Assembly: GCA_001000675.1 (NCBI GenBank)
Contig: LCHW01000001.1
Span: 424,875-488,874 of the forward strand
Direction: 5' to 3'
DNA: 64,000 bases
DNA from: Candidatus Wolfebacteria bacterium GW2011_GWE2_44_13
Lineage (GTDB): Bacteria; Patescibacteriota; Minisyncoccia; UBA6257; UBA9933
The notes under the pieces are model-generated. The model worked only from the letters and a program-made list of their open reading frames with translations, was not told the origin of the DNA and did no database searches. The translations under genes were made by a program, and so were the position numbers. Positions 5,945 to 56,687 of this stretch are shown here, piece by piece (the first letter of the stretch is position 1; each line of letters starts with the position of its first letter).

Positions 5945-6010
5945 TACTATCAAAATCCACCTGTGAGGGTGGATTTTTGGGGTAAAATGTGGTAGGATAA
6001 TAGTACTTTT

Positions 6011-7456
6011 ATGAGCATACCTGAACCTATTCGGGTGCGTATTGCGCCGTCTCCGACTGGATTACTTCATTTCGGAACAGCCCGTACCGCCCTTTTTAAT
6101 TGGCTTTTTGCCCGTCATGCAGGAGGAACCTTTATCCTTCGCATTGAAGATACGGATACAGAACGTTCAACAAAGGCATTTGAAGAAGATATTGTCACCG
6201 GATTACGATGGCTTGGTTTTGATTGGGATGAAGGTCCTGATGTCGGTGGTCCGTATGGTCCGTATCGACAATCAGAGCGACTTCCGTTTTATCAAAAATA
6301 TCTCCAGCAATTGCTCGATGAGGATAAGGCATATCATTGTTTTTGCACAAAAGAACAGTTGGATACAGATAAACAAGAAATGCAACAGCGTGGCGAAACC
6401 CCGGTGTATTCTGGACGATGCAGTGCGCTTTCTAAAGAAGATCAGGCGAAGCATATTGCAAATGGCGACGCTTCTGTTATTCGATTACGCGTTCCTACTG
6501 AGGGTGCTATCGAATTTCATGACATTATTCGCGATACCGTTTCTGTGCAAGCTACATTGATTGGCGATATTATTATTGCGCGCAGTATTGACTTACCTTT
6601 GTTTGCGCTTGCGGGTGTTGTTGATGATTACGAAATGAAAATCTCTCATGTTATTCGTGGTGAAGATCATATTTCAAACACGCCGAAACAAATCGCAATT
6701 GCGAGAGCACTTGGTTTTCCTATCCCGGAATATGCGCACCTTCCGCTTATTCTTGCACCTGACCGCAGTAAGCTTTCTAAGCGATACATTGAAACGTCGT
6801 TGAATGATTTTAAAACACAAGGATATCTTCCTAATGCACTTGTTAACTTCATGGCGTTTATTGGATGGCACCCAAAGGATGATACCGAGGTTATGTTGCC
6901 TGATGATTTAATTCGCGATTTTGATATGGAACGCGTGCAAAAAGGCGGAGGTATTTTTAACTTGGAAAAATTAGAATGGCTTAACGCGCAGCATATTAAA
7001 CGGCTTTCGATTGATGCACTTGTTGATGCTATCACGCCGTTTATTCCTACTGCGTGGACCACGCAGTCGCAAGTATTGCGACGCGCAGTCGAGGCCGAAC
7101 AAGATCGCCTTAAGCGACTAACTGAGTTTGCAGAATCAGCCGAGTTCTTCTTTGCGATTGCGGCGTATGAACCAACACTTCTTGCTTGGAAAGATGCTGC
7201 CGCAGAAGTTACCAAGGCACATCTACAATCTGTTCTGCAATTACTGGAGCCGATTGACGGGGCACAATTCACAAAAGAAGGCCTTGAAAGCGTACTTATG
7301 CCGTTGGCTGATACAAAGGGCAGGGGAGACGTTTTGTGGCCTCTACGGGTCGCTTTAAGCGGTAAAAAGGCATCTCCTGGGCCATTTGAAATCATGCCGG
7401 CGCTCGGAAAAGATGAAACGCTCCGCAGAATTCAGATGGGAATTGATAAATTATAA
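6011..7456 (+). CDS. gltX: Glutamyl-tRNA synthetase.
   Basis: The HIGH-type motif PSPTGLLHFGTAR and the KMSKS-type motif KLSKR are both present. Overall GluRS architecture, 481 aa. Confidence 0.9.
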   Translation: MSIPEPIRVRIAPSPTGLLHFGTARTALFNWLFARHAGGTFILRIEDTDTERSTKAFEEDIVTGLRWLGFDWDEGPDVGGPYGPYRQSERLPFYQKYLQQLLDEDKAYHCFCTKEQLDTDKQEMQQRGETPVYSGRCSALSKEDQAKHIANGDASVIRLRVPTEGAIEFHDIIRDTVSVQATLIGDIIIARSIDLPLFALAGVVDDYEMKISHVIRGEDHISNTPKQIAIARALGFPIPEYAHLPLILAPDRSKLSKRYIETSLNDFKTQGYLPNALVNFMAFIGWHPKDDTEVMLPDDLIRDFDMERVQKGGGIFNLEKLEWLNAQHIKRLSIDALVDAITPFIPTAWTTQSQVLRRAVEAEQDRLKRLTEFAESAEFFFAIAAYEPTLLAWKDAAAEVTKAHLQSVLQLLEPIDGAQFTKEGLESVLMPLADTKGRGDVLWPLRVALSGKKASPGPFEIMPALGKDETLRRIQMGIDKL

Positions 7457-7491
7457 TACAAACCGAATTTGTATTTTTGTAAAGTATTTTT

Positions 7492-8751
7492 ATGAATATT
7501 GTAACAAAAAAGGGGATAGTTACTCTTGCAATTACTGCGATGGCCGCGGGGTCTTTTGGTGTTGCTTTTGCTCAAACACCAACTGAGCTTAAAGAAGCAA
7601 TCGAGAAAAAACGACAAGAAGAACAAGCGCTTGGTACGCAAATTAAAGCGGTGCAAGAAAAACTTGAAGTTACTGCCGGTGAAAAACAAACTCTGCAACG
7701 CGAATTAAATCAAATTAGTGGAACGGTTAAGCAACTTGATCTGGGTATTAAGCAAAGTGTTATTGTTGCTGAAAAGCTTGGCTATGAAATAAAAGATACA
7801 CAATATACCATTGAAGAATCTGAGGAGCGTATTTTGGAACGCAAAAAAGAAATTAGTGAAATGCTTCGACAGGTACAACGCAAGGACACATCATCAGGAC
7901 CCCTCATGTCTATCTTGAGCGGAAAAAAGTTGACGGACACCCTTACAGAGATTCAGGCGTTGCTTGATTTTCAAGATAAGTTTTCGCAAGATATTCGTGA
8001 GTTGCAAGATTATACTATTGAGCTCGGTGGACATTTAAAAACTGCCGAAGAGAAAAAACGCTTAAAAGAAATAGAAGGCGAAAATTATAAAAATAAGAAA
8101 GTTATTTTAAGTGAAACGGAACGCTATCAGCAACAGCTTCTTGCACAGACAAAAAATAAAGAACAGCTGTACCAGAATTCACTTGCAGAACTGAAGAAGC
8201 AGCAAGATAAGATTGACCTTGAAATTGCGCGATTAGAAGAAGAAGCGCGTAAGAGTATTAACTTTGGCGCATTGCCAAAAGTTGATACCAGTCCGTTAAT
8301 GATGCCGGCGCAAGGAAAACTTACGCAAGGGTATGGATCAACACCGTTTGCACTGCGTAATTACGCAAGTAAACGGCATAATGGTATCGATATTGCCGCA
8401 CCCGTGGGTACACCGATTTACGCAGCTGCCGATGGGCGAGTCGTAGGAGTTGCTGATCAAGACTTGTATTGTCGAAAAGGTGCATACGGTAAGTTCGTCG
8501 CCATTACGCATTACAATGGTTTAACTACCCTGTACGCGCATCTTTCGTTATGGAAGGTTCGTGAAGGGCAAGAAGTCAAAAAAGGAGATGTTATTGGCTA
8601 CATGGGCAATACCGGATTTTCTACGGGATCGCATTTACACTTTACGGTGTATGCAACACCGACGTTTAAGATTGCGCCAGCCGCAAAGACGTGTGGTCCG
8701 AAGATGCCGTTTGGAGGAGACCTCAATCCGTTCGACTACCTCGCTAAGTAA
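7492..8751 (+). CDS. M23 family metallopeptidase with a long N-terminal coiled coil (EnvC-like murein hydrolase / activator).
   Basis: There is a signal peptide and a roughly 250-aa coiled-coil region. The C-terminal M23 motifs are HNGIDIAAPVGTPIYAAADGRV and GNTGFSTGSHLHF. Confidence 0.85.
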   Translation: MNIVTKKGIVTLAITAMAAGSFGVAFAQTPTELKEAIEKKRQEEQALGTQIKAVQEKLEVTAGEKQTLQRELNQISGTVKQLDLGIKQSVIVAEKLGYEIKDTQYTIEESEERILERKKEISEMLRQVQRKDTSSGPLMSILSGKKLTDTLTEIQALLDFQDKFSQDIRELQDYTIELGGHLKTAEEKKRLKEIEGENYKNKKVILSETERYQQQLLAQTKNKEQLYQNSLAELKKQQDKIDLEIARLEEEARKSINFGALPKVDTSPLMMPAQGKLTQGYGSTPFALRNYASKRHNGIDIAAPVGTPIYAAADGRVVGVADQDLYCRKGAYGKFVAITHYNGLTTLYAHLSLWKVREGQEVKKGDVIGYMGNTGFSTGSHLHFTVYATPTFKIAPAAKTCGPKMPFGGDLNPFDYLAK

Positions 8752-8876
8752 AAACTTTGTTATTGGCGAGCTACTACGTTACGGGCCCCAATTAACTTGG
8801 TCGATGTACAACTCAGCACATCTTCCGCGTTAATTTTCCCGTGCCTTGCATCTCATCCAATAACAAAGTTTTTTCA
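8752..8876 (+). repeat. Perfect 15-bp inverted repeat (AAACTTTGTTATTGG / CCAATAACAAAGTTT) enclosing about 95 nt, followed by TTTT. Candidate structured 3'UTR element or small RNA.
   Basis: Seen directly in the sequence. The left arm starts right after the M23 stop codon. Confidence 0.5.
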
Positions 8877-8896
8877 CCACAGTAATAGGAAAAAGA

Positions 8897-8928
8897 TTCG
8901 CTACAGGGCTCTGTAGCGAATTTTTTCT
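8897..8928 (+). terminator. Rho-independent terminator (stem tcgctacag/ctgtagcga followed by attttttct).
   Basis: A 9-bp stem followed by a T-run, downstream of the M23 peptidase gene. Confidence 0.6.
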
Positions 8929-8943
8929 GTACGGCGGGGTAGT

Positions 8944-8957
8944 TATAGTGGTATAAT
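8944..8957 (+). promoter_or_regulatory. Extended -10 promoter element TGgTATAAT, placed 8 nt before the ATG at 8966 (likely a leaderless or near-leaderless transcript).
   Basis: The sequence gtgGTATAATgacgccatATG is read directly from the sequence. Confidence 0.4.
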
Positions 8958-8965
8958 GACGCCAT

Positions 8966-9136
8966 ATGACAGAACTTCTTAATCAGATCATCGATATTGC
9001 AAAAAGCATCGCTCATGTATTCGATGCAAGCATTTGGCCGCCGCTCGTAACAATAGTTAAGAGTATTGGCCACTTGTTCGTTAAAATCCTAGAGTTAAGT
9101 ATTATGGTGGTACAATGGCTTTTGGATAAATTTTAA
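8966..9136 (+). CDS. Small 56-aa hydrophobic/amphipathic peptide (MTELLNQIIDIAKSIAHVFDASIWPPLVTIVKSIGHLFVKILELSIMVVQWLLDKF).
   Basis: I translated this by hand, since it is below the cutoff of the ORF track. A promoter lies immediately upstream. The peptide is amphipathic and contains two Trp residues. It is overlapped by an antisense 86-aa ORF (8813..9073) with a GTG start, which I consider less likely. Confidence 0.3.
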   Translation: MTELLNQIIDIAKSIAHVFDASIWPPLVTIVKSIGHLFVKILELSIMVVQWLLDKF

Positions 9137-9207
9137 TTCGTTGTACGTTGTTTTTACACGTGCTATATGGTTTACTAATATTAGTACATCGATTTAATAT
9201 AAAGAAA

Positions 9208-9230
9208 TGATTATCTCGACGAGATAATCA
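9208..9230. promoter_or_regulatory. Perfect 23-bp palindrome TGATTATCTCG-A-CGAGATAATCA immediately upstream of the RBS of the 42-aa Cys-rich peptide gene. Candidate operator.
   Basis: The palindrome has 11-bp arms. No T-run follows it, so it reads as an operator rather than a terminator. Confidence 0.5.
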
Positions 9231-9249
9231 AGAAAGGAGAGTATTTTGT

Positions 9250-9378
9250 ATGGATAAAAAGCCGTACATCCCCCCGAAGATCGAAAAGGTTGAAAAAATG
9301 CAATTCCCAATCGAGATCATCCACGGCGGGAAGAAGATCATCTGCCGTCAATGCTCATCGTGCCATGGATGCAGGTAA
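9250..9378 (+). CDS. Small 42-aa Cys-rich peptide (MDKKPYIPPKIEKVEKMQFPIEIIHGGKKIICRQCSSCHGCR).
   Basis: Translated by hand. A strong SD (aaAGGAGAgtattttgtATG) precedes the ORF. The C-terminus ends in a CxxCxxCxxC motif. A rho-independent terminator follows directly. Confidence 0.4.
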   Translation: MDKKPYIPPKIEKVEKMQFPIEIIHGGKKIICRQCSSCHGCR

Positions 9379-9402
9379 AAACACCTCACGGTTTGTTTTC
9401 GT

Positions 9403-20696: not shown

Positions 20697-21998
20697 CTAT
20701 TGCTTGTTTGTTATTGGTGCAAGTCGATATATAACGCCTGCCTTGTCGTCGGAAATATATGCGGCTCCGTTTGCGTGAAATAGAATATCTACTGGGCGAC
20801 CAAGCGTTTTTTGTTCGCCATCTATCCACCCCGTGATAAAGTCCGTTACACCTTCATATGTGCCATTTGCATTGAACTGATGGCGTACGATTTTGTAACC
20901 GGTTGGCACGCTGCGATTCCATGATCCATGATATGCGACTAAAAGGTCGTTATGATATTCTTCTGGCCAGCTATTCGGAATAAATGCGAGCCCAAGTGGG
21001 GCAGAATGCGCTTGAATGTCGATGTAGCTCGGGGTTTCGAAAGGCTCCATGCACGGGTTGCGGAAATAGGTATTTTTATCAAATTCCGTATCATGGCTGT
21101 TTTTCCCGTAACAAATTGGCCACCCATAATTGCCGCCCTGCTTGATGATATTGATCTCGTCCGGAGGGGTATTATCGCCTAAGAGGTCTCGGCCCATTTC
21201 CGTGGCCCAAATGTCTCCTGTGAGTGGGTTAAAAGCCATAAAAACGGCGTTACGAAGCCCTCTAGCGAACGTTTCTGTCTTTCCTGTACCGATGTCTATT
21301 TTTGCAATTGTCGCCCTATTGGGGTCGTTTTCGTTGCAAACATTGCAGGACGAACCAATGGAAACAAGGAGGTTGTTTTTGTACGGCAACAGTGTTCGCG
21401 TACTGTGCCCTCCGCCACTCGGGAGGGATGCAATAACCCGTTTGTTAGTTGCGGTTAAGGCTGCTGCGTCGTAGGTAAATTCACTTACTTTATCTGTTTC
21501 AGCGACGTATAGTTTGCATATATTTTCTTGTGCGCACTGCACAAGAATGCCATGGGGTGCGTTTAATCCGGAAACGACTATTTTTGTCTCGTCGCTTTTA
21601 CCGTCGTTGTTTGTATCGATAAGCGCGACTACGTTCCCCTTACCCGGAATACTTGCGAGTAAAACATTGCTAGGATCAGTCGTTAGTACGCGCGGATCAT
21701 TTAAATCTTTAGCAAAAATAGAAAGTGAAAATCCTTGCGGTATACGGAGCGGTCCTTGGGATATAACTGGCGCTGTTTGTTTAGGCGGCTTTGGCGTTGC
21801 CGTCGTGGTTGTTGGTGTCGCCTGCTCTTCTGGTTGCGATACCGATGTAGATGCTTGTTCGATAAGTCTCACGATGTCTTGCTCCGGCTTTGTGATTGCG
21901 GGCCAAATACCTCGGAGTTGTGTCCAATATACTATCGTTCCTCCGACAACCGCGAGTGCAATAAGTATTCCTCCTGTGGTGAGAATTATTTTTTTCAT
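20697..21998 (-). CDS. PQQ-dependent sugar dehydrogenase (soluble glucose/sorbosone dehydrogenase-like beta-propeller) with an N-terminal TM segment and a Pro/Thr-rich linker.
   Basis: Motifs LAFIPNSWPEEYHNDLLVAYHGSWNRS and GRPVDILFHANGAAYISDDKAGVIYR are present. The gene overlaps sodA by 4 nt. Confidence 0.7.
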   Translation of the reverse strand: MKKIILTTGGILIALAVVGGTIVYWTQLRGIWPAITKPEQDIVRLIEQASTSVSQPEEQATPTTTTATPKPPKQTAPVISQGPLRIPQGFSLSIFAKDLNDPRVLTTDPSNVLLASIPGKGNVVALIDTNNDGKSDETKIVVSGLNAPHGILVQCAQENICKLYVAETDKVSEFTYDAAALTATNKRVIASLPSGGGHSTRTLLPYKNNLLVSIGSSCNVCNENDPNRATIAKIDIGTGKTETFARGLRNAVFMAFNPLTGDIWATEMGRDLLGDNTPPDEINIIKQGGNYGWPICYGKNSHDTEFDKNTYFRNPCMEPFETPSYIDIQAHSAPLGLAFIPNSWPEEYHNDLLVAYHGSWNRSVPTGYKIVRHQFNANGTYEGVTDFITGWIDGEQKTLGRPVDILFHANGAAYISDDKAGVIYRLAPITNKQ

Positions 21999-22606
21999 AT
22001 ATGTTCAGTATAATTTTGTCCTACAACTTTCCAGTCGAGTACGTTCCACCAGTTTTGAATATATTCGGCTCTTCGATTTTGATAATGAAGATAATATGCG
22101 TGTTCCCAAATATCGATAACCATAAGGGGCGTGTCTCCCGTCATGAGTGGATTATCATGTCCTTGGGTTGAAGTAATGGTAAGTTTTTTATTGGTCGCGT
22201 CGAATACTAACCATACCCAGCCGCTTCCGAAAAGATTTGTTGCTGCCACAGTAAACTGTTCTTTAAATGCGACAATACTACCGAAGTCGTCGACAATTGC
22301 CTTCCCTAATTCTTCGGGAATATCTTCCTGCGCAGTTGGGCTCATGCAATTCCAATAGAATGTATGGCTAAAATGTCCGCCTGCGTTATTACGAACGGTT
22401 GTGCGAATTGTTTCAGGGATTTCATCGAGCATCGCGATGAGCTCTTCGGCGGTTTTGTCTTGTAGTTCGGGATATTTTTCAAGCGCTGTGTTGAGTTTAT
22501 CGACGTACGATTGATGATGTTTGCTGTGATGAATTTCGAGTGTTCGCGCATCGATAAATGGCTCGAGTGCATTGTATGCATACGGAAGCGGTGAAAGTTG
22601 GTGCAT
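21995..22606 (-). CDS. sodA: Fe/Mn superoxide dismutase.
   Basis: Motifs HHSKHHQSYV and DIWEHAYYL are present. Confidence 0.9.
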   Translation of the reverse strand: MHQLSPLPYAYNALEPFIDARTLEIHHSKHHQSYVDKLNTALEKYPELQDKTAEELIAMLDEIPETIRTTVRNNAGGHFSHTFYWNCMSPTAQEDIPEELGKAIVDDFGSIVAFKEQFTVAATNLFGSGWVWLVFDATNKKLTITSTQGHDNPLMTGDTPLMVIDIWEHAYYLHYQNRRAEYIQNWWNVLDWKVVGQNYTEHI

Positions 22607-22692: not shown

Positions 22693-22983
22693 CTACTTGT
22701 GAAACGTGTAATTGAATAACACGTTTGAGTCCAGAAAATAGGTAATCGTCTGGCTTCCTTCACGCACAGTGATCTCTGAGTAGCTAAAGAGATTTCGTTT
22801 TGTCTTGATGACTTCGGTGATAGTTGGATGATCTACTCGCAGTTCTTTTAGAACGCCGTCCGACGTCCACCATGCATTGTTCGTGGGGATGACTACTACG
22901 TTCACTACCACGATTAGCGCGATAACGATAACGATTATCAGCTCGATAAGCGTGTATCCTTTGCAATTACGAAGGTTGGTCAT
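22693..22983 (-). CDS. Type IV pilin / pseudopilin-like protein (96 aa) with a class III signal peptide.
   Basis: The prepilin motif is MTNLRNCKG-YTLIELIIVIVIALIV. The SD is aaAGGAGcagggccATG. I trimmed the start to the ATG at 22983. Confidence 0.65.
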   Translation of the reverse strand: MTNLRNCKGYTLIELIIVIVIALIVVVNVVVIPTNNAWWTSDGVLKELRVDHPTITEVIKTKRNLFSYSEITVREGSQTITYFLDSNVLFNYTFHK

Positions 22984-23021
22984 GGCCCTGCTCCTTTTGT
23001 TGAATGCTTTGAACGATGCGT

Positions 23022-23303
23022 TTATGCCTCGTCCAAGAACTTGATGAAGATCAACGGCATCTTGCGTATTTCGTGCCGTCCATGCAACAAATTCACGACT
23101 CGCTGCACTTCCTGGAATGCTTTGATATCCGGGGCGACGCATTCGAGATACGGAAACGGATCGCCTAAATGATCGGCGACTTTTGACTGAACAATTTCGG
23201 TCACGAGTTTATGTGCCATACGGGATGACAACGCGGTAACGATTTCTCGGCGAATTTTTTCCGCCTCCACTTCTCCAACTCCATGAATCTTCACAATAAT
23301 CAT
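23022..23303 (-). CDS. Small protein (93 aa), paralog A, with a tautomerase-like N-terminus.
   Basis: The sequence MIIVKIHGVGEVEAEKIRREIVTALSSRM is paralogous to 23426..23707, sharing PYL.C.A.D..F.EVQRVV.LL.GR.EI.KMPL. The SD is AGGAGG. Confidence 0.5.
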   Translation of the reverse strand: MIIVKIHGVGEVEAEKIRREIVTALSSRMAHKLVTEIVQSKVADHLGDPFPYLECVAPDIKAFQEVQRVVNLLHGRHEIRKMPLIFIKFLDEA

Positions 23304-23425: not shown

Positions 23426-23707
23426 CTATGAAGCATCGGAGAGCTCCACGTATAACAAAGGCATTTTTGGAATTTCGTAACGCCCCTGCAGTATCGTAAC
23501 AACTCGCTGCACTTCCCTGAAGCTTCGACGATCATGCGCAGTGCATTTGAGATACGGGCACTTCTCTTCCCTGTGGTTCTCGATGTTGGACAAAATAATT
23601 TCAATCACGAGAACTCTTTGTAATGGGATTGATGCTGCGTTGAATATCTTTGTCCGCAGTGCCTGTGCGTCGCTCGTGTTGGCGCCGTGAATTTCTAAGA
23701 TCGTCAT
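23426..23707 (-). CDS. Small protein (93 aa), paralog B (MTILEIHGANTSDAQALRTKIFNAASIPL...).
   Basis: Paralog of 23022..23303. The SD is GGGAGGT. I trimmed the start to the ATG at 23707. The Arg-rich N-terminal extension in the ORF track is read-through. Confidence 0.5.
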   Translation of the reverse strand: MTILEIHGANTSDAQALRTKIFNAASIPLQRVLVIEIILSNIENHREEKCPYLKCTAHDRRSFREVQRVVTILQGRYEIPKMPLLYVELSDAS

Positions 23708-24088: not shown

Positions 24089-24391
24089 TTACCGCGGACG
24101 GTATGCGATAACCTGCACGACTTCGATGTCGTACGTTTCTGCTGCGCAGAGATGTTCGCAGGAATCGATGAGCCCGATGATGCTGCGATGGTCCTCATCG
24201 GGAGTGATGTATGCCCGCAGAAACGGACGATTTCCTTGGCGCTCAACGCGCTCGCATACGCCGTTGACGACCGTGATACGGCAATCTTTTCCTGGTCTGT
24301 GATGCCGGATGTGCCTCCTGAGCTTGTTTCGATCGTGAATCATTTCTTCGAATTCGTGTCCTGGTCTGCCTCCAAACTCGATGTGTATCAT
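24089..24391 (-). CDS. Small protein (100 aa) with a Cys pattern C-x8-C...C-x3-C.
   Basis: The SD is gAGGAGGtttccATG. Repeat unit T3 follows it. Confidence 0.4.
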   Translation of the reverse strand: MIHIEFGGRPGHEFEEMIHDRNKLRRHIRHHRPGKDCRITVVNGVCERVERQGNRPFLRAYITPDEDHRSIIGLIDSCEHLCAAETYDIEVVQVIAYRPR

Positions 24392-25114: not shown

Positions 25115-25717
25115 TTATTTAACCTTTGCTCCTGATTCAATATCTTTTTCTGGAGTAAGGAGTACTGGGTTTTCCGCTCCGCCTGCAGCGAGTAGCATAC
25201 CATGGCTTTCCACACCCATTAACGCGCGTGGGGCGAGGTTGGCAACGATGATAATTTCTTTACCAACAAGCTCTTCTGGGCCATATGCTTTACCGATGCC
25301 GGCAACAATCTGTCGTTTTTCATCCCCTACTTCGAGCTGAAGCTTAATTAATTTTTCGGACTTCTCTACTCGCTCAGCTTCCATAATCTTCGCCACCTTT
25401 AATTCTACTTTTGCAAAATCGTCGTAGGTAATTTCTCCCTCGTTTGTTGTAGTGTGTTCTTCCTTCGTTACGGCTGGTGCTTCTACTAGCTTCTCATGTT
25501 TTGTCGCCACCTTTGGCTGACGCTTGGCATAGAGATAATACACATCAAGGATTCCTAGTGTGTTTATGAGAAGCAATACGACGAACCAAACTCTTTCCTT
25601 TCGCTCAAATGCTCGTAATAACGCAGCTCCTTTTATTGTGAATGTCCATATAAATAACAAAAGAAATTCGACTGGATGATTAAGAATAAATATGAATAGT
25701 AAATATTGTATTTCCAT
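25115..25717 (-). CDS. Membrane-anchored tRNA-binding domain protein (CsaA/Myf-like OB fold).
   Basis: There are N-terminal TM helices. The C-terminal tRNA-binding domain runs ITYDDFAKVELKVAKI...KAYGPEELVGKEIIIVANLAPRALMGVESHGMLLAA. Confidence 0.65.
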   Translation of the reverse strand: MEIQYLLFIFILNHPVEFLLLFIWTFTIKGAALLRAFERKERVWFVVLLLINTLGILDVYYLYAKRQPKVATKHEKLVEAPAVTKEEHTTTNEGEITYDDFAKVELKVAKIMEAERVEKSEKLIKLQLEVGDEKRQIVAGIGKAYGPEELVGKEIIIVANLAPRALMGVESHGMLLAAGGAENPVLLTPEKDIESGAKVK

Positions 25718-25781: not shown

Positions 25782-26600
25782 TCAGTCATCATCCTCATCG
25801 TCATCACCTCTATTATTGCTTGCTCCCACGGGGACGGTTGGACTTGTGGTTTGTTGTATTGTTTGCGTATTTGCTACTTGGCCAACTGCGCCTACGAAGA
25901 ATGATGCAAGTAGTTGGTGCGCGTTCGTTGAATGAGGAAGACCTTCAAATGCTGCTCCCCCATCTTTGCCACAATAGCGCAATATTGCAGAAGTGCCTCC
26001 CGGATGTCGTGGTAAATAACTCGTTACATTATACACATTATTATTAACGATCATCCAACAATCTTGTGCTATGTTATGCTTTGCTATTTCTTGTATGGAT
26101 AATGCTACAGATGCATTTGGTTGCGTGGATGGAGCTGTTGGCTGTGTTGCCGGTGTATTTGATTGTGGTTTAGTAGTGGGGCTCGCAGTTGGAGCAACTG
26201 CAATCGCTTCTTGTCCGAGATCACCGATATAGTAAGCCTTTAATAGTTCGTGTGCATTTTGAGAATGCGGAGATGGGCTCGTGGTTCTTCCTTTCGTGCT
26301 ATATGCTCGTGTTGCGTCTGTGCCGCATGTTGGCAGAATTGTATCTGCATCGCCAGGATGTTGATTTAAATACGAAGTAACGTCATATATCTTTTTATCA
26401 ATCAATAGCCAGCAACTTGATGCGCTCGCATGCTTTGCCAGCTCTTCTTTTGTTAAGATTGTACCCTGTGCGATTAATTGCGCGGGATTGTTTTGCGGCG
26501 TTGGATTGTTTGTTTTTTCCTGGAGTGCAAAGCCCGCGGTAAAAAGCGACGTAACAAATGCCCAAAATATAAAGAGTGATATGAGCGTTAATTTTTTCAT
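25782..26600 (-). CDS. Secreted protein with two tandem cytochrome b5-like heme-binding domains.
   Basis: There is a signal peptide and two HPGG-type motifs (LNQHPGDADTILPTCG and LPRHPGGTSAILRYCG). The C-terminus is acidic. Confidence 0.7.
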   Translation of the reverse strand: MKKLTLISLFIFWAFVTSLFTAGFALQEKTNNPTPQNNPAQLIAQGTILTKEELAKHASASSCWLLIDKKIYDVTSYLNQHPGDADTILPTCGTDATRAYSTKGRTTSPSPHSQNAHELLKAYYIGDLGQEAIAVAPTASPTTKPQSNTPATQPTAPSTQPNASVALSIQEIAKHNIAQDCWMIVNNNVYNVTSYLPRHPGGTSAILRYCGKDGGAAFEGLPHSTNAHQLLASFFVGAVGQVANTQTIQQTTSPTVPVGASNNRGDDDEDDD

Positions 26601-26605
26601 GGGTT

Positions 26606-27913
26606 TTAACGTAACGTGAATTCTTCGGTGTGAATATGGGCTCGACTAACGCCTTTCGCAGCAAGCTGCTTTTTGAGACTGTGCATCAGCGGTACTGGCC
26701 CACAGATAAGGATCTCGTTTGCAAAGATATCTTCTCCCATTGCTTGCAACGCATCTGCAGAAATATATCCGCGCTCGTTTGAGCAAAAAGTTGCGATGGT
26801 GATATTTGGATTCTTTTGCGCGACAGCGATGAGCTCTTCGAGAAATACCGCTTCTGTTTTGTTGGCAACACAGTAGTATATTTTTATACGGTATGCGGGG
26901 TCGATAATTGCTTTTGCCATACCAATAAACGGAGTGATTCCAATACCGCCCGCAATCCATAGCTGATTTTTCCCTGGGGCGCGCTCGTTTGAAAAAACGC
27001 CGAAAGGCCCCTCTATTTTTGCGACGGTGTTCTTCGCGATTAATTTAAATTTCCCTGTGTGATCTCCGAGTGTTTTTACGGCGATTGCTAGCCGTGGCTC
27101 ATCGGGTGACGACACAATGGAAAATGGATGAAATTCATCCCCCACTATTTCAGTTTTAAAACTAATAAATATAAATTGCCCTGCTTTATATGTAAACGGC
27201 TTGAACACGGGCTTCATAAATATCTCTACTGTATGCTCATCCATGGGGCGTACTTCATCAACAATATATTCTATGTATGAAACAAAAAGTTTTGGAGCAA
27301 CTGTTCTGTATATGATTGGGATTAAGCCGAGTACGACAAAGAATACCATATACCAATACAATAGCGATGATACTTGTGTGTCGCTATAAATAATAAGGGT
27401 ATGTATAGATGCGAGTATAAAAGAAGCTGCGAGAAACTTGTGTGTAATCCTCCACTTGTCATACGCAAAAGAAACAAAAAACGTAAGCACAAGAAATAAC
27501 ATCATAGATAGCAACGCAAATATCCCCCAGAGAATAGGCGGGTTTGTAGAAAGAAGAAATAATGCAGCGTCACGTGGTGAAGCTACGAACGCAAATTTAA
27601 GAGCGAGGAATATTGGGTGGAATAATAGCAGTGAAAATGCAATTGCACCAAACGTGTGGTGTGCAAGATATACCCGATTCATTCCATTAAAAAAGCGCTC
27701 CAAAATCGGGTGGCGTGTACTTAGAATGAGATTGAGCGCAAACATAGCCATGCCGACGAGGCCGAGCATTTGGCCAATGCTGGTTAGCGTTGTGGTAAAC
27801 GTTGCAAAACGTTCAGATAATGGCTGTATTGTAGCCCAAATAAACAACGGTGACACTGAAAGTGCCCCTACAATGAACCACCCTGATAGACCTTTCATCT
27901 TCTGTACTAGCAT
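26606..27913 (-). CDS. Ferric reductase-like transmembrane domain fused to an FAD/NAD(P)-binding domain (bacterial NOX-like oxidoreductase).
   Basis: The TM region carries paired His (HHTFG, HTLII). The HPFS motif (HPFSIVSS) and GGIGITPF are present. It sits 6 nt upstream of the di-cytochrome b5 gene on the minus strand. Confidence 0.7.
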   Translation of the reverse strand: MLVQKMKGLSGWFIVGALSVSPLFIWATIQPLSERFATFTTTLTSIGQMLGLVGMAMFALNLILSTRHPILERFFNGMNRVYLAHHTFGAIAFSLLLFHPIFLALKFAFVASPRDAALFLLSTNPPILWGIFALLSMMLFLVLTFFVSFAYDKWRITHKFLAASFILASIHTLIIYSDTQVSSLLYWYMVFFVVLGLIPIIYRTVAPKLFVSYIEYIVDEVRPMDEHTVEIFMKPVFKPFTYKAGQFIFISFKTEIVGDEFHPFSIVSSPDEPRLAIAVKTLGDHTGKFKLIAKNTVAKIEGPFGVFSNERAPGKNQLWIAGGIGITPFIGMAKAIIDPAYRIKIYYCVANKTEAVFLEELIAVAQKNPNITIATFCSNERGYISADALQAMGEDIFANEILICGPVPLMHSLKKQLAAKGVSRAHIHTEEFTLR

Positions 27914-27949: not shown

Positions 27950-27975
27950 TAAAAAGCCCCCGATGGGGGGCTTAG
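27950..27975 (-). terminator. Rho-independent terminator (agcccccgatggggggct).
   Basis: A hairpin plus T-run on the minus strand after gene 27989..28423. Confidence 0.6.
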
Positions 27976-56210: not shown

Positions 56211-56687
56211 TTATTTACACCAAAGGCACTTTTTCCATTTCGCAGGAATCATTTTTGAACGTTCGATCATGCCATCGATTCCCCAGTTACTACCCGCATT
56301 AAATACCATTAAAACGATGAAGCCGGTAATATAGACAATGTGTTCGTCCACGATGTACGAATGCTCCCCTACGTACGGGAACTTGAGGATTGGAATATAG
56401 TACAACGCCATCATTATTGCGCCAAGAAGCGATGCTGCTCGTGTAGCGAACCCAAGCAGTAATGTTGCGCCGATGAGGAAAAGTCCCCATTCATTCAAGA
56501 AATCGACCCATACAATGTTTTGCGGTGCTCCGAGCCACTGATAGAATCCTGACATAAACTGCGCCCCTTTAAGATACCCGGCTGACGTCCATGCTGCGTT
56601 CATGAGCTTAGCGATGCCGGCGTAGAGAAACAAAAACCCAAGAGAAACACGCAAAAGAAGCAATGCTATTTTTTGTGATTTTGTCAT
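56211..56687 (-). CDS. DoxX family membrane protein.
   Basis: Four TM helices, with LLLRVSLGFLFLYAGIAKL. Confidence 0.75.
   Translation of the reverse strand: MTKSQKIALLLLRVSLGFLFLYAGIAKLMNAAWTSAGYLKGAQFMSGFYQWLGAPQNIVWVDFLNEWGLFLIGATLLLGFATRAASLLGAIMMALYYIPILKFPYVGEHSYIVDEHIVYITGFIVLMVFNAGSNWGIDGMIERSKMIPAKWKKCLWCK

What the first reader, a model, noticed from the sequence alone, without database searches (positions are those of the whole stretch)
25782..27913. Operon pairing a NOX-like ferric-reductase/FAD-NAD(P)H oxidoreductase with a secreted double cytochrome b5 protein
The 435-aa protein has the heme-binding His pairs of the ferric reductase/NOX transmembrane domain plus the HPFS and GGIGITPF FNR-like module. 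It sits 6 nt upstream of a signal-peptide protein with two HPGG cytochrome b5 domains.

This reads as a two-gene transmembrane electron-export unit: cytoplasmic NAD(P)H to membrane hemes to extracellular b5 hemes. A sodA-PQQ-dehydrogenase operon lies nearby at 20697..22606.

Bacterial NOX homologs are little characterised, and a dedicated extracytoplasmic di-b5 acceptor is unusual.
Basis: partly seen in the sequence, partly recalled or inferred. Interest (0 to 1): 0.55.

Follow-up and report, generated by a model that had tools for sequence, protein, structure and literature searches.

The report
NOX-like reductase with tethered cytochrome b5
Two tightly coupled genes encode a membrane enzyme of the bacterial NADPH-oxidase (SpNOX) type and an outward-facing protein with two cytochrome b5 haem domains, most likely a route for sending electrons from NAD(P)H out of the cell; the pairing is real and widespread but had already been noted, and its final electron acceptor is unknown.

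Summary
On the minus strand, 26606..27913 encodes a 435-aa SpNOX-type protein. It has six TM helices, four invariant haem-ligating His, HPFS and GGIGITPF. Five nt downstream, 25782..26600 encodes a 272-aa protein with an N-terminal hydrophobic helix, two bis-His cytochrome b5 domains on disordered linkers and an acidic tail.

The pairing is not chance. Of 80 loci fetched with the b5 family, 54 have a NOX homologue nearby, and 43 of those are co-directional with a median gap of 4 nt. Of 70 usable loci fetched with the NOX family, 21 have a b5 gene directly downstream.

The pair occurs in Patescibacteria (CPR), in an archaeal Micrarchaeota contig and in Gammaproteobacteria (Haliea).

Best reading (inferred, untested): NAD(P)H to FAD to two membrane haems to the tethered b5 haem(s) to an unknown external acceptor. 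This fits the 2024 SpNOX structure papers, which proposed an unidentified protein acceptor.

A 2021 preprint already reported ferric-reductase/cytochrome-b5 colocalisation in 185 CPR genomes, so this is a new member of a known, uncharacterised module.

The b5 protein is probably membrane-tethered rather than freely secreted. The nearby SOD/GSDH pair is not linked to it in other genomes.

The parts
27954..27973 (-). Terminator-like hairpin (8-bp stem, 6 G-C pairs, T-rich tail) between the upstream 144-aa gene and the NOX start. It suggests that NOX-b5 starts its own transcript.
   Evidence: pattern scan only; function not shown
26606..27913 (-). SpNOX-type NAD(P)H-dependent transmembrane reductase, 435 aa: six TM helices with two bis-His haem sites, followed by a cytoplasmic FAD/NAD(P)H dehydrogenase domain.
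   Evidence: Best PDB sequence hit is SpNOX 8qq7, E 6e-36. AF2 model pLDDT 90.4; Foldseek top hit SpNOX, TM-score 0.80/0.86.
27410..27766 (-). Ferric_reduct transmembrane haem domain (residues 50-168). Haem ligands are H85/H158 (inner) and H99/H171 (outer), assigned by alignment to SpNOX H69/H129 and H83/H142.
27044..27253 (-). FAD-binding subdomain (residues 221-290) with HPFS at 262-265.
26672..26956 (-). NAD(P)H-binding subdomain (residues 320-414) with GGIGITPF at 322-329 and CGP at 404-406. The invariant F432, fourth residue from the C-terminus, corresponds in position to SpNOX F397.
26601..26605 (-). 5-nt spacer (AACCC) between the NOX stop and the b5 start; translational coupling is likely.
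   Evidence: In related loci the median gap is 4 nt, and 13 of 43 have a 4-nt overlap.
25782..26600 (-). Di-cytochrome-b5 protein, 272 aa: N-terminal TM helix, disordered linker, b5 domain 1, disordered linker, b5 domain 2, acidic tail.
26517..26600 (-). N-terminal hydrophobic helix (residues 1-28, MKKLTLISLFIFWAFVTSLFTAGFAL). It is a probable signal-anchor and is as conserved as the haem domains.
   Evidence: (51.7% mean pairwise identity against 10-12% for the linkers)
26211..26462 (-). b5 domain 1 (residues ~47-130). Axial His are H81 (HPGD) and H112; conserved Cys are C63 and C92.
   Evidence: (best PDB hit 1cxy, with Cys at the same positions)
25878..26111 (-). b5 domain 2 (residues ~164-241). 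Axial His are H199 (HPGG) and H223; conserved Cys are C181 and C210.
25785..25817 (-). Acidic C-terminal tail (NNRGDDDEDDD), conserved in character in CPR/DPANN homologues; role unknown.

Best explanation
This is a two-gene, co-translated electron-export module.

The 435-aa protein is a SpNOX-type enzyme. Its cytoplasmic domain takes a hydride from NAD(P)H onto FAD. Single electrons then cross the membrane through an inner haem (H85/H158) and an outer haem (H99/H171). The outer loops are short, so the outer haem should be solvent-exposed.

The 272-aa partner is held at the outer face of the membrane by a conserved N-terminal helix. It carries two bis-His cytochrome b5 domains on flexible Pro/Thr/Gln-rich linkers.

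I propose that the b5 haems are the direct physiological acceptor of the outer haem. They would relay electrons away from the membrane to an acceptor that is not encoded next to the pair. The most likely acceptors are ferric iron, or another soluble, mineral or host-surface oxidant. This would serve iron reduction, NAD(P)+ regeneration, or both, in an organism without a respiratory chain.

Shown here: domain make-up, ligand conservation, fold, topology logic, and conserved gene coupling across phyla.

Inferred: haem loading, NOX-to-b5 electron transfer, anchor retention, and the terminal acceptor.
For: Anatomy of the reductase:
- Pfam domains above cut-off.
- SpNOX is the best sequence hit (E 6e-36) and the best fold hit (TM-score 0.80/0.86).
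- The four haem His, HPF, GGIGITPF, CGP and the C-terminal Phe are invariant in 23 homologues.
- The AF2 model (pLDDT 90.4) has six TM helices and short outer loops at residues 30-38, 111-124 and 175-182.

Anatomy of the b5 protein:
- Two Cyt-b5 domains (E 1.6e-44) with both axial His invariant.
- The model has the b5 fold (1cxy TM-score 0.90) and looks like beads on a string.
- The motif C[WYF]..H[PSA]..CG..H[ST] is kept in 140 of 155 domains.
- The Cys pair lies at the same positions as in periplasmic E. vacuolata b558.

Coupling:
- The spacer is 5 nt.
- 54 of 80 b5-family loci have a NOX homologue. 43 of these are ordered NOX then b5 on one strand, with a median gap of 4 nt and 13 four-nt overlaps.
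- 21 of 70 NOX-family metagenome loci have a b5 gene directly downstream, including NOX homologues only 27-32% identical to the query.
- The same arrangement is found in Haliea sp. (Gammaproteobacteria) and three related contigs, and on an archaeal contig.
- No third conserved gene accompanies the pair.

Anchor:
- The N-terminal helix is as conserved as the haem domains.
- NOX-linked b5s in CPR and in Gammaproteobacteria share an MKK..F.FW N-terminus. The solo Ectothiorhodospira b558 precursors have ordinary AxA signal peptides.

Literature:
- SpNOX has a highly exposed outer haem and reduces cytochrome c directly under anaerobic conditions. Its authors state that oxygen may not be the physiological acceptor and that a protein acceptor may exist (PMC11564096; PMC11031084).

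From my own knowledge, not tested here: b5 midpoint potentials are well above those of NOX haems. That makes NOX-to-b5 transfer downhill and makes b5 a poor generator of superoxide.
Against: - There is no experimental datum for this pair or for any homologue. No multimer prediction could be run, so no interface is shown.
- Most NOX-like genes lack a neighbouring b5: 49 of 70 in my metagenome sample and 1242 of 1427 pFre-bearing CPR genomes in the preprint. The reductase family therefore works without b5 in most organisms.
- About a quarter of b5-family loci have no NOX within 8 kb.
- Cleavage of the N-terminal helix by signal peptidase cannot be excluded, because small residues follow it (TAG in CPR, LHA in Haliea).
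- The organism probably cannot make haem and would need to acquire four haems per complex.
- No neighbouring gene points to a terminal acceptor, so the physiological role is a guess.
Confidence: 0.6

Rival explanations
1. Assimilatory ferric reductase. The pair exists specifically to reduce extracellular Fe(III) chelates to Fe(II) for uptake, with b5 as the iron-facing reductase. This is a special case of the main model with a defined purpose.
For: - The family carries the Pfam ferric-reductase domain.
- Homologous 'MsrQ-like' NAD-binding FRD proteins paired with extracytosolic flavoproteins were linked to VIT1 iron transporters and proposed to be assimilatory iron reductases (PMC8238504).
- SpNOX shows weak direct ferric reductase activity.
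- The acidic C-terminal tail could bind cations; this is speculation.
Against: - No iron transporter or iron-regulated gene recurs next to the pair in 160 loci.
- SpNOX ferric reductase efficiency is very low (kcat 0.05 per s).
Confidence: 0.25
2. True NADPH oxidase. The reductase reduces O2 to superoxide at its outer haem as in eukaryotic NOX, and the b5 protein is an accessory: a regulator, a superoxide or peroxide handler, or simply co-transcribed.
For: - SpNOX consumes O2 and was first characterised as a NOX (PMC5676040).
- A Fe/Mn SOD gene lies 3 kb away in the window.
- In one Ectothiorhodospira-like contig the solo b558 gene is followed by a glutathione peroxidase gene.
Against: - Mutating the candidate O2-site residues of SpNOX did not reduce activity. 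Its authors question O2 as the physiological acceptor.
- Those SpNOX positions (N84, S86) are P100 and F102 here (alignment).
- A conserved, translationally coupled haem protein with intact bis-His electron-transfer sites is hard to explain as a bystander.
- SOD is not a conserved neighbour.
Confidence: 0.12
3. Electron supply to an extracytoplasmic enzyme, following MsrQ-MsrP logic. Here b5 is an adaptor that feeds a reductase, oxygenase or desaturase encoded elsewhere in the genome or belonging to the host cell.
For: - MsrQ, the only prokaryotic FRD protein with a known role, donates electrons to periplasmic MsrP. Both SpNOX structure papers draw this parallel.
- From my own knowledge, eukaryotic b5 typically serves as an adaptor to enzymes.
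- In one variant operon the multi-b5 protein is co-encoded with a membrane-anchored cyclophilin. This shows dedicated extracytoplasmic maturation, but it does not identify a target enzyme.
Against: - No candidate client enzyme is conserved near the pair.
- From my own knowledge, not tested: CPR genomes generally lack molybdenum-cofactor enzymes such as MsrP.
Confidence: 0.15
4. Haem capture. The surface b5 domains bind and relay exogenous haem for a haem-auxotrophic cell, by analogy with NEAT-domain proteins, and the reductase is only one of the consumers.
For: - Tandem haem-binding domains on a surface tether.
- From my own knowledge, CPR organisms are thought to lack haem synthesis.
Against: - From my own knowledge, bis-His HPGG-type b5 sites are classical electron-transfer sites that bind haem tightly.
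- The same pair occurs in Haliea, a free-living gammaproteobacterium.
- No haem transporter is linked to the pair.
Confidence: 0.04

Closest known systems
SpNOX (Streptococcus pneumoniae NADPH oxidase; PDB 8qq7, 8qt6) and the prokaryotic NOX family of Hajjar et al. 2017
   Same: - Same architecture and size: six-TM bis-haem domain plus an FAD/NAD(P)H domain with no regulatory add-ons.
- Same four His and same motifs, with short outer loops.
- Sequence E 6e-36 and full-length fold match.
   Different: - About 25% identity only.
- SpNOX has no reported partner gene, and its physiological acceptor is unknown. Here a b5 protein is encoded 5 nt downstream.
- The candidate O2-site residues N84 and S86 of SpNOX are not conserved here.
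pFre / cytochrome-b5-domain colocalisation in CPR bacteria (bioRxiv 10.1101/2021.11.17.468889)
   Same: Same kind of pairing. A PF01794 protein lies within 10 kb of a PF00173 protein in 185 of 1427 pFre-bearing CPR genomes. The authors proposed a membrane complex of unknown function.
   Different: - That work centred on tyrosine-ligated MAPR-like cytb5MY proteins, atypical b5-like proteins and two-component regulators.
- The window has a classical bis-His di-b5 and no regulator.
- The preprint states that the colocalisation is absent outside CPR. I find it on an archaeal contig and in Gammaproteobacteria.
MsrQ-like flavinylation-associated systems (Méheust et al. 2021, eLife, PMC8238504)
   Same: [quoted passage not shown] NAD(P)H is proposed as the cytosolic donor.
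   Different: - The outside partner there is an ApbE-flavinylated FMN-binding protein, mostly in Actinobacteria.
- That paper reports extracytosolic flavinylation as strikingly under-represented in CPR.
- Here the outside partner is a haem b5 protein, and no ApbE gene is nearby.
MsrPQ (E. coli YedYZ)
   Same: An FRD-family dihaem membrane protein with an exposed outer haem hands electrons to a dedicated extracytoplasmic partner encoded in the same operon.
   Different: - MsrQ has no fused dehydrogenase domain and draws on quinol or Fre.
- Its partner is a molybdoenzyme with a defined substrate.
- Here the donor domain is fused and the partner is a pure electron carrier.
Ectothiorhodospira vacuolata cytochrome b558 (PDB 1cxy), the classical bacterial b5
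   Same: It is the best PDB match to b5 domain 1 (E 6e-16). It has the same bis-His ligands and the same two Cys positions, and it is periplasmic.
   Different: - It is a single domain, soluble, with an ordinary cleavable signal peptide.
- Its gene is not next to a NOX-like gene.
Eukaryotic NADH-cytochrome b5 reductase / cytochrome b5 pair
   Same: An FNR-type flavoprotein reduces a b5 haem with NAD(P)H. PDB b5 reductases 2eix and 7rom match the dehydrogenase domain.
   Different: - In eukaryotes both proteins face the same compartment, and no membrane is crossed.
- Here two membrane haems lie between the flavin and b5, and b5 is on the other side of the membrane.

Membership tests
Prokaryotic NOX family (criteria of Hajjar et al. 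2017, PMC5676040) | Two His-X12/14-His haem-binding patterns, at least 20 residues apart, in transmembrane helices 3 and 5 | tested here: met
   The ligand pairs are H85/H99 (13 residues between them) and H158/H171 (12 between them). They lie in modelled helices 78-110 and 151-174. They are invariant in 23 homologues and align to SpNOX H69/H83/H129/H142.
Prokaryotic NOX family (criteria of Hajjar et al. 2017, PMC5676040) | FAD-binding motif H[PSA]F[TS][LIMV] | tested here: met
   HPFSI at residues 262-266; H, P and F are invariant.
Prokaryotic NOX family (criteria of Hajjar et al. 2017, PMC5676040) | [quoted passage not shown] | tested here: met
   GIGITP at residues 323-328.
Prokaryotic NOX family (criteria of Hajjar et al. 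2017, PMC5676040) | Six transmembrane helices followed by a C-terminal dehydrogenase domain; full-length fold like SpNOX | tested here: met
   AF2 model pLDDT 90.4 with six long helices followed by an FNR-like fold. Foldseek top hits are SpNOX 8qt6 and 8qq7, TM-score 0.80/0.86.
Prokaryotic NOX family (criteria of Hajjar et al. 2017, PMC5676040) | NAD(P)H-dependent reduction of O2 to superoxide | not testable with these tools
   This is an enzymatic property. Even for SpNOX, O2 as the physiological acceptor is questioned.
Cytochrome b5 family (Pfam PF00173, bis-His class) | Match to the Cyt-b5 profile above the gathering score, and a b5 fold | tested here: met
   150 bits against a cut-off of 23.7, in two stretches. 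The model matches b5 structures, with TM-score to target 0.8-0.9.
Cytochrome b5 family (Pfam PF00173, bis-His class) | Two axial His (an HPGG-type motif and a downstream HS) in each domain | tested here: met
   The axial His are H81 and H112 in domain 1, and H199 and H223 in domain 2. All are invariant in 19 homologues. The full Cys/His pattern is kept in 140 of 155 domains. Domain 1 reads HPGD.
Cytochrome b5 family (Pfam PF00173, bis-His class) | Binds haem b and is redox-active | not testable with these tools
   Needs spectroscopy on expressed protein.
pFre/cytb5 module of CPR bacteria (bioRxiv 10.1101/2021.11.17.468889) | PF01794 gene and PF00173 gene within 10 kb in a CPR genome | tested here: met
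   The two genes are adjacent. The NOX protein is 100% identical to an NCBI record named 'MAG: membrane flavodoxin oxidoreductase [uncultured bacterium]'. A 66%-identical homologue is labelled Candidatus Wolfebacteria, and the best b5-family locus is also Wolfebacteria.
pFre/cytb5 module of CPR bacteria (bioRxiv 10.1101/2021.11.17.468889) | Presence of a Tyr-ligated cytb5MY protein and a two-component regulator (their proposed ancestral operon) | tested here: not met
   Only a bis-His di-b5 is present. The neighbours are a 144-aa protein of unknown function, queA, tgt, a tRNA-binding-domain protein and a peptidase S51.
MsrPQ system | Molybdopterin MsrP partner; MsrQ without a fused dehydrogenase domain | tested here: not met
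   The partner is a b5 protein and the FRD is fused to an FAD/NAD domain. The pair works like MsrPQ in outline but is not a member.
MsrQ-like flavinylated system (PMC8238504) | [quoted passage not shown] | tested here: not met
   Neither was found in the genes flanking the pair. The pair is analogous, not a member.

The most novel reading that the evidence does not exclude
The tethered b5 protein is the long-sought physiological protein acceptor of SpNOX-type bacterial NOX enzymes. Together they would form a haem-b-based extracellular electron-transfer pathway. A variable string of one to seven b5 domains would act as a wire through the cell envelope. This would let respiration-less CPR bacteria and DPANN archaea, and some Proteobacteria, discharge NAD(P)H electrons onto iron, oxygen or the surface of a host cell. 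The conserved MKK..F.FW helix would be the intramembrane docking element.
Probability: 0.3. Interest if true: 0.7.

Novelty: new member of a known kind. Interest (0 to 1): 0.5.

Why it matters
The physiological role and electron acceptor of bacterial NOX homologues are open questions. The SpNOX structure papers state this explicitly.

A conserved, translationally coupled b5 partner gives that question a concrete and testable candidate. The version in the named gammaproteobacterial genus Haliea could be a more tractable system than the CPR organisms.

For CPR and DPANN organisms, which lack respiratory chains, an NAD(P)H-driven route to external acceptors would bear on how they balance redox, how they obtain iron, and how they interact with hosts.

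The value is tempered. The colocalisation in CPR was already reported, and nothing here is experimental.

Tried and rejected
- **Third conserved partner or terminal acceptor gene.** I clustered all neighbours in 80 b5-seeded and 80 NOX-seeded loci. Only housekeeping synteny appeared (prfB, ftsE/X, lepA, dnaX, ABC ATPases, assorted P-type ATPases). No iron transporter, ApbE or client enzyme was found.
- **Link to the nearby SOD/GSDH pair.** It does not recur in other loci.
- **Whether E. vacuolata b558 itself sits beside a NOX gene.** It does not: the two Ectothiorhodospira-type genes are solo. Four Haliea-type homologues are coupled.
- **Natural NOX-b5 fusion as Rosetta-stone evidence.** None was seen. 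The 574-aa NOX P0173 has only a Pro/Thr-rich N-terminal extension.
- **Small upstream gene in the proteobacterial loci.** A ~93-aa gene upstream of NOX in the Haliea-type loci and a 109-145-aa gene in the high-GC metagenome loci show no similarity to each other or to Pfam.
- **Multimer prediction.** It was not available. The two genes are in different frames, so no read-through construct was possible.
- **Reverse electron flow (outside to NAD(P)+).** Rejected on thermodynamic grounds, from my own knowledge.
- **Rfam scan of the window.** It found nothing.
- **Literature searches for an experimental bacterial NOX-b5 link.** They found none.
Full report
**1. The observation**

The ORF at 26606..27913 (435 aa) matches three Pfam families above their curated cut-offs:
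- Ferric_reduct, residues 50-168
- FAD_binding_8, residues 221-290
- NAD_binding_1, residues 320-414

HPFS lies at residues 262-265 and GGIGITPF at 322-329.

The ORF at 25782..26600 (272 aa) matches Cyt-b5 twice, E 1.6e-44.

The NOX stop codon (26608-26606) and the b5 start codon (26600-26598) are separated by five bases, AACCC.

Two details need correcting. Only the second b5 domain has HPGG; the first has HPGD, and its second axial His is 31 rather than 24 residues further on. The N-terminal hydrophobic stretch is about 22 uncharged residues and is modelled as one helix covering residues 3-28. It looks more like a signal-anchor than a typical cleaved signal peptide.

The neighbour at 20697..22606 is a Fe/Mn superoxide dismutase overlapping by 4 nt a GSDH/TrAA12-like beta-propeller.

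**2. The reductase**

Its best match among solved structures is SpNOX, the Streptococcus pneumoniae NADPH oxidase (8qq7, E 6e-36, residues 45-420).

In that alignment H85, H99, H158 and H171 fall on SpNOX H69, H83, H129 and H142. These are the ligands of the inner (H69/H129) and outer (H83/H142) haems.

In an alignment of 23 homologues at 40-73% identity, several features are invariant:
- the four His
- HPF
- the glycine-rich NAD(P)H motif
- CGP at residues 404-406
- F432

F432 is the fourth residue from the C-terminus, like SpNOX F397, which stacks on the flavin.

The AlphaFold model is confident (pLDDT 90.4, pTM 0.84). It shows six long helices and an FNR-like domain. The outer loops are only 8-14 residues long, at positions 30-38, 111-124 and 175-182. 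Its best fold matches are the three full-length SpNOX structures, TM-score 0.80/0.86.

Charged residues follow the positive-inside rule, read from the sequence on the model's helices. The N-terminus and loops 67-82 and 149-159 are net positive. The three outer loops are neutral or -1. The dehydrogenase domain is therefore cytoplasmic, as in SpNOX.

The protein meets every sequence criterion that Hajjar et al. used to define prokaryotic NOX. Activity cannot be tested here.

**3. The b5 protein**

Nineteen homologues align along their whole length. In each domain the following are invariant:
- the two axial His: H81 and H112 in domain 1, H199 and H223 in domain 2
- a Cys-Trp in the first strand
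- a Cys-Gly before the third helix

Across 155 b5 domains in 78 related proteins, 140 keep the whole pattern.

The closest solved structure to domain 1 is 1cxy, the periplasmic cytochrome b558 of Ectothiorhodospira vacuolata. It has Cys at exactly these two positions. I recall that 1cxy contains a disulfide, but I did not verify this. A conserved Cys pair shared with a periplasmic protein argues for an extracytoplasmic location.

The AlphaFold model has mean pLDDT 78.5 and shows, in order:
- a helix, residues 3-28
- a disordered linker
- a well-folded b5 domain
- a second disordered linker, residues 138-159
- a second b5 domain
- a disordered acidic tail

Foldseek returns only b5 structures; 1cxy has a TM-score to target of 0.90.

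Mean pairwise identity in the 19-sequence alignment is as follows:

| Region | Identity |
|---|---|
| N-terminal helix | 52% |
| b5 domains | 51-54% |
| Linkers | 10-12% |

A targeting signal that is merely removed would not normally be as conserved as the catalytic domains.

The number of b5 domains varies from one to seven (three in P0014, seven in L078). In most of the CPR/DPANN homologues with one to three domains the same helix and acidic tail are retained.

**4. Gene coupling across genomes**

A scan of one genome per GTDB species with the b5 alignment found relatives in 383 genomes. The best 80 loci were kept.

- In 54 of them a NOX homologue (E below 1e-10) lies in the flank.
- In 43 the order is NOX then b5 on one strand. 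The median gap is 4 nt, and 13 have a 4-nt overlap.
- In five the two are divergent.
- In one the order is reversed.
- Of the 25 without a NOX, five are cut at the contig end.

A converse scan of metagenome contigs with the NOX alignment gave 70 loci with enough downstream sequence. In 21 of these a b5 gene follows directly. These include NOX proteins only 27-32% identical to the query, from high-G+C organisms.

No third gene is conserved beside the pair.

In the window, a strong terminator-like hairpin at 27973..27954 separates the upstream gene from the NOX start. No terminator was detected after b5.

**5. Taxonomic spread**

Most loci are labelled Patescibacteria (CPR). The window's NOX protein is 100% identical to an NCBI record from an uncultured bacterium. 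Close relatives are labelled Wolfebacteria: a NOX homologue at 66% identity and the best b5-family locus, L001.

The pair also lies on a contig of Micrarchaeota archaeon RBG_16_49_10. That contig carries ribosomal protein S4e, RNase P subunit p29 and SUI1, so it is genuinely archaeal.

I searched with the b558 sequence and inspected six hits. The two Ectothiorhodospira-type genes are solo. Four others lie immediately downstream of a NOX-like gene with a 4-nt overlap. One of these is from Haliea sp. E1-2-M8 (Gammaproteobacteria). The Haliea NOX is 31% identical to the window's (E 5e-47) and keeps the four His.

The NOX-linked proteobacterial b5s begin MKKVVFATFVAFWSS. This resembles the CPR consensus MKKLTxISLFIFWA. 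The solo Ectothiorhodospira precursors instead have ordinary AxA signal peptides.

Among the genome loci, the F-W motif goes with NOX adjacency: 23 with against 1 without when the motif is present, versus 22 against 20 when it is absent (Fisher p 2e-4). This test is not corrected for phylogeny, and close variants of the motif (FIFF, FIFG) are also NOX-linked.

**6. Mechanism**

The parts fit a chain: NAD(P)H, then FAD, then inner haem, then outer haem, then b5 haem(s).

Shown here:
- domain make-up
- ligand conservation
- folds
- topology logic
- gene coupling

Inferred:
- haem loading
- actual electron transfer from the outer haem to b5
- retention of the helix as an anchor
- direction of flow

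The inference is supported by published work on SpNOX. Its outer haem is highly solvent-exposed. It reduces cytochrome c directly under anaerobic conditions. Mutating the candidate O2-site residues did not reduce activity. The authors write that oxygen may not be the physiological acceptor and that a protein acceptor may exist, by analogy with MsrQ and MsrP.

From my own knowledge, b5 potentials lie well above those of NOX haems. The transfer is therefore downhill, and b5 is a poor source of superoxide.

Two features point to an acceptor outside the operon and away from the membrane: the lack of any conserved client gene, and the variable string of b5 domains on long flexible linkers. Candidates are ferric iron, another soluble or mineral oxidant, oxygen, or a host surface. 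I cannot choose among these.

**7. Rivals**

- A dedicated assimilatory ferric reductase is a narrower form of the same model. It has no support from neighbouring genes.
- A true oxygen-reducing NOX with b5 as a bystander is hard to square with the conserved coupling and with the SpNOX mutagenesis.
- An MsrPQ-like supply line to a client enzyme is possible, but no client is linked.
- A haem-capture role is unlikely, given bis-His electron-transfer sites and the occurrence in free-living Haliea.

**8. Comparison with what is known**

The reductase is a member of the prokaryotic NOX (SpNOX-type) family. The partner is a bis-His cytochrome b5 of the bacterial b558 type.

The pairing itself was already reported. 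A 2021 preprint found a PF00173 gene within 10 kb of a PF01794 gene in 185 of 1427 pFre-bearing CPR genomes. It proposed a membrane complex of unknown, CPR-specific function.

The window lacks the Tyr-ligated cytb5MY protein and the two-component regulator that the preprint emphasised. My data also contradict its statement that the pairing is confined to CPR.

The closest functional analogues are MsrQ-MsrP and the 'MsrQ-like' NAD-binding FRD proteins paired with ApbE-flavinylated proteins. That study reports extracytosolic flavinylation as strikingly under-represented in CPR. A b5 carrier may fill that role there; this is my inference.

**9. Verdict**

It is a new member of a known but uncharacterised module, so its novelty is moderate.

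What this check adds:
- the tight coupling statistics
- the conserved anchor helix and its cross-phylum motif
- the conserved Cys pair
- the variable domain number
- the spread to archaea and Gammaproteobacteria
- the link to the open question of the SpNOX acceptor

Confidence that the two proteins work together is high. Confidence in direct NOX-to-b5 electron transfer is about 0.6. The terminal acceptor is unknown.

Noticed in passing
window 20697-22606 (-): A Fe/Mn superoxide dismutase (21995-22606) overlaps by 4 nt a GSDH/TrAA12-like beta-propeller with an N-terminal hydrophobic segment (20697-21998). This pairing of an antioxidant enzyme with a putative sugar dehydrogenase was not seen near NOX-b5 in other loci.
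   Followed up: partly
window 23022-23303 (-), ~23426-23707 (-), 24089-24391 (-): Two clearly paralogous small ORFs of about 93 aa share the motifs IHG, PYLxC and FxEVQRVVxxLxGRxEIxKMPL. A possible third copy lies in tandem. None has a Pfam match. The region is dense with overlapping ORFs on both strands.
   Followed up: partly
window 22693-23142 (-): A small protein with a type IV pilin-like N-terminal methylation motif (PF07963, E 4e-7).
   Followed up: no
window 25115-25717 (-): The gene directly downstream of b5 fuses a DUF5652 membrane domain to a tRNA-binding domain of the methionyl-tRNA-synthetase C-terminal type. A tRNA-binding domain on a membrane anchor is odd.
   Followed up: no
L015, L023, L029, L042, L051, L074 (around 6000-9400 in each): A variant arrangement. 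The NOX gene is divergent from a two-gene unit that encodes a membrane-anchored cyclophilin-type prolyl isomerase (PF00160, E 4e-37) and a longer protein with three or four b5 domains. That protein ends in a conserved ...C instead of the acidic tail. In L074 the b5 ORF was not called.
   Followed up: partly
L030 8871-9158, L031 851-1174, L039 8569-8970, L049 3821-4093: In di-b5 loci without a NOX gene, the b5 gene is followed by a 90-133-aa two-TM, His-bearing protein. It has only sub-threshold similarity to PepSY_TM, DUF4405 and cytochrome b561. It may be an alternative membrane partner.
   Followed up: partly
L078 4986-9332; L052, L053, L054, L058: Very long proteins with four to seven tandem b5 domains (up to 1448 aa) and no NOX gene within 8 kb. 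L078 is labelled Actinomycetes.
   Followed up: no
L161 5001-5399, L163 1126-1485: The Ectothiorhodospira b558-type genes stand alone beside pnp/rpsO. In L163 the gene is followed by a glutathione peroxidase gene. Both have ordinary cleavable signal peptides, unlike their NOX-coupled homologues.
   Followed up: yes
L164 2442-3654, L165 2275-2559, L166 1612-2774, L167 597-881: In the Haliea-type loci a conserved gene of about 93 aa lies just upstream of NOX-b5. In two loci a 273-aa gene lies there as well. Neither has a Pfam match.
   Followed up: partly
window 56211-56687 (-): A DoxX-family membrane protein (PF07681, E 8e-8), which is another small redox-associated membrane protein in this genome.
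   Followed up: no
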